Assembly: GCA_031835245.2 (NCBI GenBank)
Contig: JAVKOQ020000021.1
Span: 186,001-250,000, forward strand
DNA length: 64,000 bases
Origin: Balamuthia mandrillaris
Taxonomy: Eukaryota
Reading direction: 5' to 3'
A program made the position numbers and the translations under genes. Positions 47,658 to 52,211 of the stretch are shown here, one piece after another; the first letter of the stretch is position 1; each line of letters opens with the position of its first letter. The notes beneath the pieces were generated by a model. The model was not told where the DNA came from and did not search any database. It saw only the letters and a program-made list of their open reading frames with translations.

Positions 47658-48053
47658 ATGTCGTCCTTCTCGCCAGAGTTCGTTGCGTGGCCTTCCATCG
47701 GTGCCTTGAACACCGTCATTCGCGCTCGTGCCAAAGCTTCCTTATCTTCCTCTTCCGCTGCGTCTTCTTTCTCTTCCAGCGGTCGCCCTCGTGAAGAGGA
47801 CGAGGAAGACTGGGCCTCCGCTTGGCAAAGCCGCCTCACCGGAGCGAGCTTTAACTATCGCGCCAAGATTAAACTTCATGGAAGCAACGCCGCTGTGACT
47901 CTGTTTTCCGGCGGCTTTCGTGTGCAGAGTCGAACTAGGTTCTTGCTTCTTGTTCTTCTTCTTCTTCTTCTTCTTCTTCTTCTTCTTCTTCTTCTTCTTG
48001 TTCTGCTTCTTGTTCTTCTTCTTCTTGTTCTGCTTCTTGTTCTTCTTCTTGTT

Positions 48054-48084
<31 letters not shown>

Positions 48085-50244
48085 TGTTTTTGTATTACAT
48101 ACGAAAAAAGATTTATCGACGACGAGAACAAAGGCATGAGCGGGTGGGTTAAAAGACATGCCGATTACTGGAGCGGTCAGTGGGACCGAATGCGAAGCTC
48201 CCTGTTGCATTGTTCGGATAGGACCTTTTCGGAGGCCGCTTGTTGCACCGTATTTGGAGAGTGGTGTGGCCCTGGAGTTCAAAAAGGGGTTAGTTTTGCG
48301 TCTTTTTGTTTTTGTGTTTTGTTTCTTCTTTTTTTTTCTTTCTTTTCTTTTTCTTTTTCTTTTTCTTTTTCTTTTCTATTCTTTTCTATTCTATTCTATT
48401 CTTTTCTTCTTTCTTGTTATTTCATTTGCCTTTATTTCATTTGTTGTTGCTGAACAACAACGAACAACAAGAGTGTTGTGGCAGTGGAACAAATCCCTGA
48501 GCACATTTTCGCCGTGTTTGCCATTCTCGTCGGAGACCTCCTCCTCATCGAGCCTCAACAAATCTCCAACCTTCTGTCTTCCTCCTCTTCCTCTTCTTCC
48601 ACCCCTTCCTATCCTCCCAATCTTCACGTCCTTCCTTGGCTTTCCTTTGATCCTCTCCTTCTCTCCTTTTCTTCTTCTTCCTCTTCCTCTGCTCCTTTTG
48701 CAGAAGCTATAACGAGAATGAACTCTATAGTAGAGGCTATAGAAGAGGAGGATCCCTTTATATCTCATATTTTCAACATCAAAGGACCTGGAGAAGGCGC
48801 TGTGTGGTATCCGTTGTTGGAGCAAGAGTGGTCTTGGTACTGGCAAAACGCTTTGCCTCGTTCTCTCTTTGGAGCTCTTTCCTTCAAAACAAAAGGCACC
48901 TTACATCAAATGACAAAATCTTCCTTGAAGAGACATCAAACAACAAAAGAAAGAAAGACAACATCACCAGTAAAATGGCAAACGGAACTCGTGAGCAACG
49001 AAGATGAGTTGGTGGAAATGTTTGTCACTTCTGCTCGTTTACTTCAAGCTTTCAACGAAGTCATTCAAGATCAAGAAGAAGACGAAGAGTTCAACAGCGA
49101 GAAAGTGAAACGGAGAATGACAGAATGGTTAGTAAAGGACATCAAGAAGGAGAGTGTGGCAGAAAGAGAATTAGCTCGTTCAACACTGGGATGTTCCATC
49201 GATGATTGGACTAAAGTCTCATCCCTCATTCATCAGCGCGTTCAAAGTTGGTCTTCATCTTCCTCTTCTCAGCATCTGTTTCAGCAACAACAAAGAACGA
49301 CGAGCAAAACAGAAGAGAAAATAAGAAGCAACGAAAATGGAGGCAACAAAAGTTTGTTTCGAGGACTCTGTTTCTGTTTTTCGGATGCCGTTTCGTTTGG
49401 AGATAAGTCTAAATGGACCAAACTCATCAAAGAGCATGGAGGAAACACGAGTTACTTTCTGTCATTCAAGAATTGTCAGTATCTTATAGCGACCGAAGAG
49501 GAAGTTAGGAACGTTATACATCCACAAAAACAGGAAAGACAACAACATAAAAGAGGTAAAGTTTGGGATGCTCTCCAGTTTCTCCAACAACAAAATGGAG
49601 AAAGTGGAAATCTTCGTGCTTCGTTGTCTTCATCTGCTTCTTCTGCTTCTTCATCATCCCAAAAATTCATGATAGTGGATACGAAGTTTGTGGAGAAGAG
49701 CGTGGAGAGTGGCAAGCTGGAAGAGTTTGAGCATGACTTGTTGCGACGGTTGAAAAAGGAGGAGGGAGACATCACTTCGCGAGAGATTGAGCAGGTTTGT
49801 TGCGTTCTCTGGCTTCTTTTCAGCTTGTTTGCTTACCTTTGTTCTTTCTTTATCTCCTAACACAAAAACAGAAACTTAGTGACAGAGAAGCCATCAAAAG
49901 TAAGAAGTTTTCCATGCTCCTTCATTCTTCTTGTCCCTGTGACTCTTCTTCCCATTCCTTTTTCTTTTCTTCGTTTGCTCACAATGGTCCAATACATCGA
50001 CACAACACAGATCTTCCTAAAGCGTTGGTTTGGTCTTATGGAAAGTCATCCGACGAACCAAAGTTTCCAGAACACAACTATGAGGTTGTTAAAATGGACG
50101 TGCTTCAATGCATGGACTTTAAAGCCAACAACAACAAGTTTTACGTGATGGAACTTCACGCTTCCAATGACTATAACATGTACTCTTCTAATGACGGGGA
50201 CGAAGGGCATGACATCCATTCTTTTGTTTCTTTATTATTTTTGT

Positions 50245-50287
<43 letters not shown>

Positions 50288-50551
50288 CCTCTCTCCCTCT
50301 CTTTCTTCTCTAACTGAAACAAATACAGAACGTACTTTTTGTATAGAATATTCACTCATCACGGTCGAACGGACGAGCTTGAAACTAAAAAGAACTGTGC
50401 TCAACGGGAGTGCCGCTATTTGCGTACCCTGAACGAAGCTGAAGTCTTGTATGACTTTGTGTTGGCCACCAAACTTGCCAATGATAAAGGATACAAGAAA
50501 GTGGACCTGGTTTCCGTTTCGCCGAATATAGTTTCTCCAAAGGTTTCGTTC

Positions 50552-50590
<39 letters not shown>

Positions 50591-52211
50591 CGCCTTTTTT
50601 ACATTCTTAACGTAGTATAACAAACAGCTACAAAAAGAAAAACTGCAAAAAGAAGAAGATGTCAACTCCTTCTCCTCTCAACAGCGTCAACAACAGCCAA
50701 CAAGCACTCTTCCAAAACCCGTTCAACAACTGGTTCAACTGTTATACAAAGAAGCTAGCGAGTCCGTCACGAGAACGGTCATCGCACGCATAACAACTGA
50801 CGGCATTGAAACGCCGCTTGGCATTTTATCTCTCACCCAGATACAACGAGGAGAGGATGTTCTTCTAGAACTATCGCATTTGGCGATGCAACCAGAGTCA
50901 TCGGTATCTACTTTTTGTTTCTCTCTTTTGTTCATCCTATGTTTAATGTTCTACGTTCAGGAGCGAGACGAACAAGTGGAAAAGCTTTCACAAGAGTTTT
51001 ATTCGATGATTCCCCACCGCTTGGGCACCAACAAGGCGGAGGTACGAAGGGCGATTCTGTCCTCTCCCCAACTCATCGAGGAGAAGCAAAACTTGCTTCA
51101 GTTGATGCGAGATATTATTTCTGTACGTTTTTTTTCTTGTTCTTTTCTGCTTTTCCTTCTCTTTTTGCTGTTCATTTATTTACTTTTACTTGGTTTCTTT
51201 TTTTTTTTGTTATGTTCTCTATTATTTTATCATTTTTTTCAAAACTAACTTGTTTGTTGGCGTAAAAGGTGAGTAATGCTCGCTCAAGGGAAAAGAACAT
51301 GGCAGAGATAGACAAAATGTACAACGCACTCGAATGCGACATTCGACCTCTCAAACAAGACTCACCTCAATATAGATCCATTTCGGAGCATTTCTTGAAT
51401 AGACCTTCAACAACAACACCACAACTTCGCATCGAAGGAATATATGCCCTCAAGCAACAAACAAGCAGTTCTTCTTCCACATCATCGTTTCTTCGTTCGT
51501 CTTCCTCATCATCTTCCTCATTTGGTTCGAATCTGTTGTCCTCCTTTTGGGATGAAGGTGGAGAATCGGAGGATAGGGGACGACAAAGTGAGGAGCGGTT
51601 GTTGTTCCATGGTTCTCGACTAAGCAATTATGTTGGTTTGTTCCTCTCTTTCCTTTAGTTTCCTTTTATTTGGTCTTTCTTCCCTAAATTGTTCTCTGTT
51701 GTGCATCAACATTCCAATAGGACTTTTATCAAGAGGCATTCTTCTTCCTAAAGTCATCGTCTCACAGGGTATCACCTCCCGCACTGACTTTGGCTTTTTA
51801 GGCGCTGGCATCTACTTCTCCGAAAATAGTTATGCCAGCCTCAAATACACCACTCCTCTCCCTCCTCCTGCCTCTTCTTCCTCCACACAGGTCAATCATA
51901 GCAACAAGAAGAAAAATAAGAACAATAACAATAACAACGACGTCAACAACAAAGAGAAGGAGGAGGAGTTGCGGCTGATGCTGTTGGTGAACGTGAAGCT
52001 GGGCAGAATGAAGGACTTCGTGAAGATAACGCCTCACTTGGTGGAACCTCCTGCGGGCTACGATTCCTGTCATGGAGTGAAGCACGGCAGCGGCGATCCT
52101 CCCGTGGAGAGCGACTTTAAGGAGGACGAGTACGTCGTCTACGATGCCGCTCGCCAAAAGCTGGCCTATTTAGTTGCTTTTCTTTGTTATAACACAACAA
52201 AAATTGCATAA
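47658..52211 (+). CDS. RNA ligase (Rnl2-type)-BRCT-WGR-PARP fusion protein, multi-exon
   Basis: KIKLHGSN, QSR, FGEWCGPGVQKG, FAVFAI, GEGAVW, FKTKG; BRCT (LFRGLCF..LIKEHGG); WGR-like (NNNKFYVMEL, FTHHGR); PARP regulatory region; LLFHGS, GAGIYFS, GYDSCHG, DEYVVY. Confidence 0.88.

What the first reader, a model, noticed from the sequence alone, without database searches (positions are those of the whole stretch)
47658..52211. RNA ligase-BRCT-WGR-PARP fusion: candidate coupled RNA repair / ADP-ribosylation enzyme
Seen: splicing at 47939-48110 and 48289-48471 keeps one frame. It carries all the Rnl2 nucleotidyltransferase motifs (I KLHGSN, Ia SR, III FGE, IIIa FAVF, IV EGAV, V FKTK) and an Rnl2-like C-domain (FVTSARL...VKDIKKE). 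Ligase motifs IIIa-V and the BRCT lie in one uninterrupted exon (48472-~49793), so the ligase-BRCT junction does not depend on splice prediction. WGR-like, regulatory and catalytic PARP regions follow, with an intact H-Y-E triad (HGS ~51608, GIYFS ~51812, DEY ~52128). Established: the catalytic region (GILLPKVIVSQG..RTDFGFLGAGIYFS..PPAGYDSCHG..DFKEDEYVVY) is typical of PARP4/vault PARP, yet PARP4's VIT/vWA tail is absent. PARPs can ADP-ribosylate nucleic-acid terminal phosphates. Inference: the protein may sense RNA breaks, cap or activate ends with ADP-ribose and then ligate them, or act in antiviral/anti-ribotoxin defence. I do not know a characterised protein with this architecture.
Basis: partly seen in the sequence, partly recalled or inferred. 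Interest (0 to 1): 0.92.

Follow-up and report, generated by a model that had tools for sequence, protein, structure and literature searches.

The report
RNA ligase fused to PARP enzyme
This amoeba gene is transcribed and spliced into one reading frame that joins an RNA-ligase domain to a PARP4-type ADP-ribosylating domain, a pairing also kept in a distantly related amoeba and in three unnamed public sequences, and it likely seals broken RNA while marking the damage with ADP-ribose.

Summary
Confirmed and extended. Ten exons (47658-52211, +; eight GT-AG introns, one GC-AG) encode 1171 aa, identical to an NCBI Balamuthia mandrillaris model. RNA reads join the ligase/BRCT exon to the WGR and PARP exons. 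Profiles and a confident model show Rnl2-like ligase with C-domain, BRCT, WGR, helical domain and a PARP4-type catalytic domain. The fusion is not a one-off: it recurs at 31-44% identity in Pelomyxa schiedti (another amoebozoan phylum) and three unnamed sequences. Ligase motifs and the H-Y-E triad are kept, and both halves give the same sub-groups in trees. No prokaryotic or viral fusion was seen, and no paper describing it was found; one key survey was unavailable. Most likely it is an ATP-dependent RNA nick ligase carried on an RNA-binding, mono-ADP-ribosylating PARP4-like module (inferred, 0.45). The bold reading, NAD+-driven ligation through an ADP-ribose cap, has in vitro precedent but is less likely (0.15). 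Related PARPs carry PNKP or UDG instead. A new, conserved, uncharacterised architecture; no activity has been tested.

The parts
47658..52211 (+). Whole gene, 10 coding exons (47658-47938, 48111-48288, 48472-49794, 49872-49899, 50011-50206, 50329-50542, 50628-50903, 50961-51122, 51269-51635, 51721-52211), 1171 aa
   Evidence: Translation identical to NCBI KAL6075057.1 = P0004; RNA joints
47658..48894 (+). Rnl2-like nucleotidyltransferase domain (aa 1-294): motif I K72 (47871), Ia R92 (47931), III E144 (48259), IIIa F169 (48517), IV E261 (48793), V K292/K294 (48886-48894)
   Evidence: Pfam RNA_ligase 4e-9; phrog_548 5e-27; fold matches T4 Rnl2 1s68 Z 13.5, rmsd 3.3, 195 aligned; residues kept in 146-147 of 147 non-PARP relatives
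48988..49260 (+). Rnl2-type helical C-domain (aa ~326-416) with R342, D376, E380
   Evidence: Family profile aligns to T4 Rnl2 2hvq across these positions, E 9e-13; R/D/E kept in 6 of 6 fusion-type rows and 145-147 of 147 relatives
49348..49758 (+). BRCT domain (aa ~446-582, with low-complexity insertions)
   Evidence: Pfam BRCT_2 6e-6 on the exon; fold matches PARP4 BRCT 9dev Z 10.6, rmsd 2.2, 93 aligned, 26% identity
50067..50512 (+). WGR-fold domain (aa ~623-730); signature reads H-G-R in all five fusions
   Evidence: Fold matches PARP1 WGR 2cr9 Z 10.1, rmsd 2.3, 90 aligned; Pfam WGR 3e-4 in homologue P0143; column counts
50207..50328 (+). Intron 5, non-canonical GC-AG
   Evidence: Joint in 5 reads of X2 and one X1 contig; gives the P0004 sequence
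50703..51313 (+). PARP helical/regulatory domain (aa 766-901)
   Evidence: Pfam PARP_reg 4.8e-21
51332..52190 (+). PARP4-type ART domain (aa ~908-1165), triad H1000 (51608), Y1040 (51813), E1145 (52128); ends the protein, no VIT/vWA tail
   Evidence: Best PDB sequence hit PARP4 8sx1 E 3e-33 against 4e-17 for PARP1; fold Z 27.6, rmsd 4.0, 313 aligned; triad kept in 5 of 5 fusions

Best explanation
The gene encodes one protein with an Rnl2-like ligase domain followed by a PARP4-type BRCT-WGR-helical-ART module, both with intact catalytic motifs, and it likely works as an RNA-break repair unit. Inferred steps: (1) the BRCT, RNA-binding in human PARP4, would help hold the protein on structured RNA; (2) the ligase would adenylate K72 from ATP, pass AMP to a 5'-phosphate end and seal it to a 3'-OH end in a nicked RNA such as a cleaved tRNA or rRNA; (3) the ART domain is predicted to add single ADP-ribose units from NAD+, to the protein itself, to nearby proteins or to ends not yet ligatable, as a damage mark or temporary cap. 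End-healing (kinase, phosphatase) would come from other proteins, since none is fused here. Shown: the architecture, its splicing, its conservation and the intact motifs. Not shown: any activity, substrate or coupling.
For: One spliced frame with RNA joints from the BRCT exon into WGR/PARP. Same domain order in P0125/P0126, P0143 (Pelomyxa schiedti), P0144 and P0154 at 31-44% identity. Pelomyxa is Evosea and Balamuthia is Discosea. The ligase and PARP trees both pair Balamuthia with P0125 and Pelomyxa with P0144, as expected if the halves were inherited together. Both sets of catalytic residues are kept across that depth. RNA rather than DNA: the best ligase folds are T4 Rnl2, T. brucei REL1 and a eukaryal nick-sealing RNA ligase (Z 13.5-12.5), above the best DNA ligase at 11.4. 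An Rnl2 C-domain is present, and BRCT, not an OB domain, follows it. 14 of 120 listed stand-alone relatives are fused to a tRNA-binding domain. RlaP homologues lie within 4 kb in 11 of 62 bacterial loci, PNKP in 6 of 80 viral loci. PARP4 BRCT binds RNA in preference to DNA (PMC10711553 passages; PMC12212138 abstract and one section). Mono-transfer: A1047 aligns with PARP4 T484 (PARP1 K903, whose change to Ala converts PAR to MAR) and E1143 with PARP4 D545.
Against: No biochemistry was found for this ligase subfamily. It falls far below the TIGR02307 Rnl2 cut-off (no hit for P0004; 17-35 bits against 197 for 5 relatives). It also replaces three T4 Rnl2 residues recalled as essential (E34, D120, K209; aligned), although the change is family-wide. 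RNA binding does not modulate human PARP4 activity, and its WGR-CAT binds no nucleic acid. Related PARPs are fused to DNA-repair enzymes (PNKP, UDG), which points to DNA. The neighbour counts have no background control, and most of the RlaP loci are related myxobacteria. The model's pTM of 0.55 does not fix how the two active sites sit. The trees are quick or FastTree, unrooted, and the long branch P0154 is unplaced in the ligase tree.
Confidence: 0.45

Rival explanations
1. DNA or RNA/DNA-hybrid break repair. The BRCT-WGR-helical-ART module senses nuclear strand breaks as PARP1-3 do, and the ligase seals nicks that carry a 3'-ribonucleotide. It would be one of a set of amoebozoan PARPs that each bring a repair enzyme (ligase, PNKP, UDG) to a break.
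For: Related PARPs among the hits carry PNKP-type domains (P0175, P0178-P0180, P0195, P0215) or UDG (P0153, P0155, P0239). The model aligns over WGR to ART with DNA-bound PARP1 (4dqy Z 23.8, rmsd 4.3, 403 aligned). That Rnl2 can join a 3'-RNA end to a 5'-DNA end is recalled, not tested.
Against: No OB or DNA-binding domain. Stand-alone relatives sit in tRNA/RNA-repair contexts. PARP4 BRCT prefers RNA. The PNKP and UDG fusions are separate branches with the enzyme at the C-terminus.
Confidence: 0.2
2. NAD+-driven ligation. The ART domain ADP-ribosylates the 5'-phosphate of a broken RNA, and the non-adenylated ligase uses that cap as an activated donor, joining RNA without ATP and leaving an abasic site. 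A variant is Tpt1/KptA-like removal of a blocking terminal phosphate before sealing.
For: T4 Rnl1 ligates 5'-ADP-ribosylated RNA without ATP, and the authors name the cellular ligase as unknown (PMC9458441 passages). ART (KptA) and ligase cooperate in RNA repair (PMC9503650 section 3.7.3). The fusion keeps both sites in five lineages. A second ligase-like type may be fused to a related PARP in P0162.
Against: That ligation is blocked when the ligase is ATP-charged and leaves a lesion. K72 and all ATP-site motifs are intact. RNA ADP-ribosylation in that paper is ascribed to TRPT1 and PARP10/11/12/15; 'PARP4' has 0 occurrences in it. The ART here is PARP4-type, not KptA.
Confidence: 0.15
3. Tethering without chemical coupling. 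An ancestral clade-5 PARP, a family that shuffles accessory domains freely in amoebae, captured a ligase for localisation or co-expression, and the two enzymes act on separate substrates.
For: Hits of this PARP type carry many unrelated partners: ankyrin, ubiquitin, WWE, 14-3-3, actin, Alba. Clade 5 expanded in Amoebozoa (PMC4245714 passages). Pelomyxa also has a stand-alone ligase of the family (P0006). NCBI lists isoforms lacking either active site (P0002, P0003).
Against: The fusion has been kept across two amoebozoan phyla with both active sites intact. No separate PARP gene lies near the stand-alone ligase in 62 of 62 bacterial loci, and one does in only 2 of 80 viral loci, which neither helps nor excludes this.
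Confidence: 0.17
4. Annotation or assembly artefact: two adjacent genes merged.
For: No single read or contig laid spans the whole gene.
Against: Spliced reads join exons 3-4-5. P0125 is one 1111-aa ORF on a 3385-base contig. The same order is found in five lineages.
Confidence: 0.03

Closest known systems
T4 RNA ligase 2 (Rnl2) and kinetoplastid RNA-editing ligase REL1
   Same: Nucleotidyltransferase fold (Z 13.5 and 13.2, rmsd 3.3 and 3.6, 195 and 210 aligned), motifs I-V, helical C-domain with the R/D/E residues, no OB domain.
   Different: Distinct subfamily (phrog_548-like, below the TIGR02307 cut-off) with I/V, A/G/S and Y at T4 E34, D120 and K209. Fused to BRCT-WGR-PARP. Activity untested.
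Human PARP4/vault PARP and amoebozoan clade-5 PARPs
   Same: BRCT-WGR-helical-ART order, H-Y-E triad, best sequence and structure match, PARP4-like degenerate acceptor site.
   Different: No VIT, vWA or C-terminal vault-binding region; the ART ends the protein; an RNA ligase sits N-terminal to the BRCT. 'Ligase' has 0 occurrences in the main text of PMC4245714, and the 'ligase' passages shown from PMC2964712 concern ubiquitin ligases.
Tpt1/KptA with ATP-dependent RNA ligases (fungal Trl1, phage RNA-repair modules)
   Same: An NAD+-using ART-superfamily enzyme working beside an ATP-grasp RNA ligase in RNA repair.
   Different: There the ART is a KptA phosphotransferase in a separate protein. 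Here it is a PARP with regulatory domains in the same chain, and no kinase or phosphodiesterase domain is present.
PARP1 with XRCC1-DNA ligase III-PNKP single-strand-break repair (recalled)
   Same: Logic of a PARP break sensor bringing a ligase and end-healing enzymes.
   Different: Separate proteins linked by poly(ADP-ribose) binding and acting on DNA. Here the link is covalent, the ligase is RNA-type and the PARP is predicted mono-transferring.

Membership tests
Rnl2 family RNA ligase | Nucleotidyltransferase motifs I, Ia, III, IIIa, IV, V with catalytic Lys | tested here: met
   K72, R92, E144, F169, E261, K292, K294; kept in the fusions (P0154 begins after motif I) and in 146-147 of 147 relatives
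Rnl2 family RNA ligase | Rnl2 nucleotidyltransferase fold | tested here: met
   1s68 Z 13.5, rmsd 3.3, 195 aligned; 2hvq Z 13.3
Rnl2 family RNA ligase | Helical C-domain with conserved Arg/Asp/Glu, no OB domain | tested here: met
   Profile alignment to 2hvq; R342, D376, E380. The rigid structural match stops near residue 301, so the C-domain rests on the profile and predicted helices
Rnl2 family RNA ligase | Curated equivalog model TIGR02307 above cut-off | tested here: not met
   No hit for P0004 at E 0.01; four relatives plus P0006 score 17-35 bits against 197
Rnl2 family RNA ligase | T4 residues E34, D120, K209 (importance recalled, not from a call) | tested here: not met
   I71, A170, Y266 in P0004; substituted throughout the subfamily
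Rnl2 family RNA ligase | ATP-dependent sealing of 3'-OH/5'-P RNA nicks | not testable with these tools
   Needs enzyme assay
Clade 5 PARP (PARP4/vPARP) | Catalytic region closest to PARP4 | tested here: met
   E 3e-33 against 4e-17 for PARP1; Z 27.6 against 23.8. My trees held no human PARP4 or clade-1 outgroup
Clade 5 PARP (PARP4/vPARP) | BRCT-WGR-helical-ART order with H-Y-E | tested here: met
Clade 5 PARP (PARP4/vPARP) | ART in mid-protein followed by VIT/vWA or a long C-terminal extension (PMC2964712) | tested here: not met
   Protein ends about 10 residues after the ART in all five fusions; no VIT/vWA hit
Clade 5 PARP (PARP4/vPARP) | Degenerate acceptor site (mono-ADP-ribosylation) | tested here: inconclusive
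   A1047 at the T484/K903 position and E1143 at D545 fit; F1034 at N471/M890 is PARP1-like in being hydrophobic; activity untested
Clade 5 PARP (PARP4/vPARP) | Association with vault particles | not testable with these tools
   The C-terminal vault-binding region is absent by architecture
Tpt1/KptA-coupled RNA repair | KptA-family ART | tested here: not met
   The ART is Pfam PARP with a helical domain

The most novel reading that the evidence does not exclude
A natural NAD+-powered RNA ligase: one amoebozoan protein caps a broken RNA's 5'-phosphate with ADP-ribose and hands it to its own Rnl2-like domain for ATP-independent sealing. It would be the first cellular enzyme built for a reaction so far seen only with mixed enzymes in vitro, and a member of an unrecognised set of PARP4-type 'break repair' fusions (ligase, PNKP, UDG) that hints at the original job of the PARP4 clade.
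Probability: 0.15. Interest if true: 0.93.

Novelty: new variant of a known kind. Interest (0 to 1): 0.7.

Why it matters
It ties ADP-ribosylation to RNA ligation in one conserved eukaryotic polypeptide. Two questions are open in the papers read: which cellular ligase could use ADP-ribosylated RNA (PMC9458441), and what the RNA-binding PARP4 module is for (PMC10711553). This protein lets both be tested with one recombinant enzyme and two point mutants. It also exposes a widespread RNA-ligase subfamily for which I found no biochemistry, and a set of protist PARP fusions with end-repair enzymes.

Tried and rejected
No whole genome is held, so paralogues and PNKP-fused PARPs in the same organism were not checked. 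A first gene model using only GT donors gave 8 open models of 4096 but the wrong intron-5 donor; RNA corrected it. Single-sequence AlphaFold failed (pLDDT 35). A 141-row mixed alignment misaligned the ligases and was dropped; the 97-row one used for the model still misplaces the C-domain of stand-alone ligases, so C-domain counts were redone by profile. The careful IQ-TREE run did not finish, and no AU test was run. Viral origin or a viral copy: none of the best 80 of 304 viral loci matched the query beyond residue 456. Recent bacterial transfer is not favoured: the fusion ligases sit in a 20-22-row set with the Pelomyxa stand-alone ligase, apart from the named bacterial ones, but the trees are unrooted and most of those rows are unnamed. 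PADLOC: 0 hits for 7 of 8 proteins and one weak hit over a BRCT. ESM Atlas: no usable hit for P0004, and no answer for the other requests. No run was on record as an RNA holder; that blank was not used. Earlier findings of the scan: none. Literature searches without a description of the fusion: (Rnl2 residues) returned 0 papers. Burroughs and Aravind 2016 (RNA repair survey) and Aravind et al. 2015 (ART survey) were not held and could mention such fusions; figures were not visible, and the supplement of PMC4245714 held only 331 characters. No complex prediction was run, as no binding claim is made.
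Full report
Observation. The region 47658-52211 (+) holds a ten-exon gene. 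A search with exon 3 found one long relative among 7976 scored candidates, an NCBI protein of Balamuthia mandrillaris. Its cluster holds P0004 (KAL6075057.1, 1171 aa), which is identical to the translation of my final exon model. Eight introns are GT-AG; intron 5 (50207-50328) is GC-AG.

Transcription. Four public runs were laid on 47300-52350 (about 3-5% of each raw run was read; X4 gave only 2 reads). Five of the nine introns appear as listed joints. The two that matter most carry the ligase/BRCT exon into the WGR exon, with 7 reads at 7 starts each in X2. Introns 2 and 6 follow from contig coordinates: one contig has 231 letters where the genome has 414, which is the 183-base intron. Intron 1 rests on a depth drop and on the match to an intronless homologue. 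No single record spans the gene, and the reads differ from the window by up to 10%, so they probably come from other strains.

Domains. Pfam on P0004 gives RNA_ligase 4e-9, BRCT_2 6e-5, PARP_reg 5e-21 and PARP 1e-15. A profile of 60 stand-alone relatives matches T4 Rnl2 over both domains (E 9e-13). The closest solved PARP is PARP4 (E 3e-33, against 4e-17 for PARP1). An AlphaFold model built on 97 rows (pLDDT 81.6, pTM 0.55) matches PARP4 CAT (Z 27.6, rmsd 4.0, 313 aligned), T4 Rnl2 (Z 13.5, 3.3, 195), T. brucei REL1 (13.2, 3.6, 210), PARP4 BRCT (10.6, 2.2, 93) and PARP1 WGR (10.1, 2.3, 90). The relative placement of the domains is not determined.

Conservation. A profile search of proteins of 766-2185 aa found 2 of 5562 candidates: the Balamuthia protein and unnamed P0125, collinear at 39% identity. 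An exhaustive search gave 2704 hits, of which the best 150 were listed. Four of those 150 have both this ligase and the PARP domain: P0001, P0143 (Pelomyxa schiedti KAH3762714.1), P0144 and P0154 (which begins after motif I). P0184 has ligase and BRCT only. That makes five lineages. The two named ones belong to different amoebozoan phyla. Ligase residues K72, R92, E144, F169, E261, K292, K294, R342, D376 and E380 are kept in the fusions and in 145-147 of 147 other relatives; H1000, Y1040 and E1145 are kept in 5 of 5 fusions.

Trees. In the PARP half, the fusions and three N-terminally short sequences form one side of a starred branch (96 in FastTree on 98 of 119 hits; 98 in quick IQ-TREE on 42 rows). 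In the ligase half, the fusions other than long-branch P0154 group at 90 (155 of 171 hits) and 87 (50 rows). Both halves pair Balamuthia with P0125 and Pelomyxa with P0144. This fits one old fusion inherited as a unit (inference; the trees are unrooted and no careful run finished).

Context of each half. Stand-alone ligases of this subfamily are common in bacteria and viruses. 14 of 120 listed relatives are fused to a tRNA-binding domain and one to DENR_N. Among 62 bacterial and 80 viral loci, RlaP homologues lie within 4 kb in 11 and 2, Rnl1 in 2 and 3, PNKP in 0 and 6, and a separate PARP-like gene in 0 and 2. These counts lack a background control and include related genomes. RlaP adds nucleotides to RNA 3' ends and is named for its link to RNA ligases (PMC12776372 passages; PMC7824862 passages). 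No viral locus among the best 80 carried the fusion. On the PARP side, related proteins carry VIT/vWA, ankyrin or ubiquitin domains, but also PNKP-type domains (6 proteins) and UDG (3 proteins). P0162 joins a different ligase-like domain (Pfam 5e-4; no match to my profile) to a related PARP; its place in the tree is unresolved.

Mechanism. Shown: architecture, splicing, conservation and intact motifs. Inferred (0.45): ATP-dependent sealing of nicked RNA by the Rnl2-like domain, with the PARP4-type module binding RNA through its BRCT and adding single ADP-ribose marks. Human PARP4's BRCT binds RNA in preference to DNA (PMC10711553 passages; PMC12212138 abstract and section 9). The acceptor site looks mono-transferring: A1047 aligns with PARP4 T484/PARP1 K903 and E1143 with D545, although F1034 is hydrophobic like PARP1 M890. 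Against coupling: RNA does not modulate PARP4 activity. Against a plain Rnl2: the subfamily misses the TIGR02307 cut-off and replaces T4 E34, D120 and K209, whose importance I recall but could not source. Rivals: DNA or hybrid nick repair (0.2), tethering without coupling (0.17), NAD+-driven ligation through an ADP-ribose cap (0.15; precedent and limits in PMC9458441 passages; KptA precedent in PMC9503650 section 3.7.3), artefact (0.03).

Comparison with what is known. It works like Rnl2 joined to the N-terminal third of PARP4, but it meets neither the Rnl2 equivalog model nor the vault-PARP architecture. Surveys of PARP families describe expanded, VIT-less clade-5 PARPs in amoebae without an RNA ligase in the passages seen (PMC4245714; PMC2964712). 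A paper on Acanthamoeba PARPs has no occurrence of 'ligase' (PMC11165085), and a Balamuthia transcriptome preprint mentions PARP once, not this fusion. Eight searches found no description. Two relevant surveys were not held, so novelty in print is likely, not certain.

Verdict. A real, expressed, conserved and apparently undescribed fusion of two known enzyme types with both active sites intact. New variant of a known kind; interest 0.7, rising to about 0.93 if the two activities prove chemically coupled.

Noticed in passing
proteins P0175, P0178, P0179, P0180, P0195, P0215 (search hits): PARP4-type WGR-helical-ART proteins with a C-terminal polynucleotide kinase/3'-phosphatase region and about 300-1000 unannotated residues between; they form one starred branch.
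   Followed up: partly
proteins P0153, P0155, P0239 (search hits): PARP4-type proteins fused to a uracil-DNA-glycosylase-family domain; P0165 has an N-terminal Alba/Rpp20 domain.
   Followed up: no
protein P0162 (1156 aa): A different ligase-like domain (motif I reads KLDGSN; Pfam RNA_ligase 5e-4) N-terminal to WGR-helical-ART: a possible second, independent ligase-PARP fusion.
   Followed up: partly
L138:7177-8463 and L082:2800-3462: Separate PARP-like genes within 4 kb of the stand-alone ligase in two viral contigs.
   Followed up: partly
protein P0224: Ligase of this subfamily fused to an N-terminal DENR_N (translation re-initiation factor) domain, in the same tree set as the PARP fusions.
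   Followed up: no
window 50207-50328: GC-AG intron confirmed by RNA joints.
   Followed up: yes
NCBI isoforms P0002 and P0003: Annotated variants that lack either the Y/E of the PARP triad (read-through into intron 9) or ligase motifs I-IIIa; they may be retained-intron noise.
   Followed up: no
window 3750-7276 (-), 8469-9638 (-), 18220-19335 (+), 22281-25138 (-), 26852-27631 (+), 28674-31940 (-), 37271-38625 (+), 43110-43838 (-): Ordinary eukaryotic neighbours: XRN1-like exonuclease, actin-like, ubiquitin E1, AAA ATPase, serine beta-lactamase-fold protein, EF-G/EF2-like GTPase, guanylate-binding protein, TspO (30 of 78 candidate ORFs scanned). No functional cluster with the fusion gene is evident.
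   Followed up: partly
window 46844-47289 (-): Small divergently transcribed ORF with a hydrophobic signal-peptide-like N-terminus and no Pfam hit.
   Followed up: no
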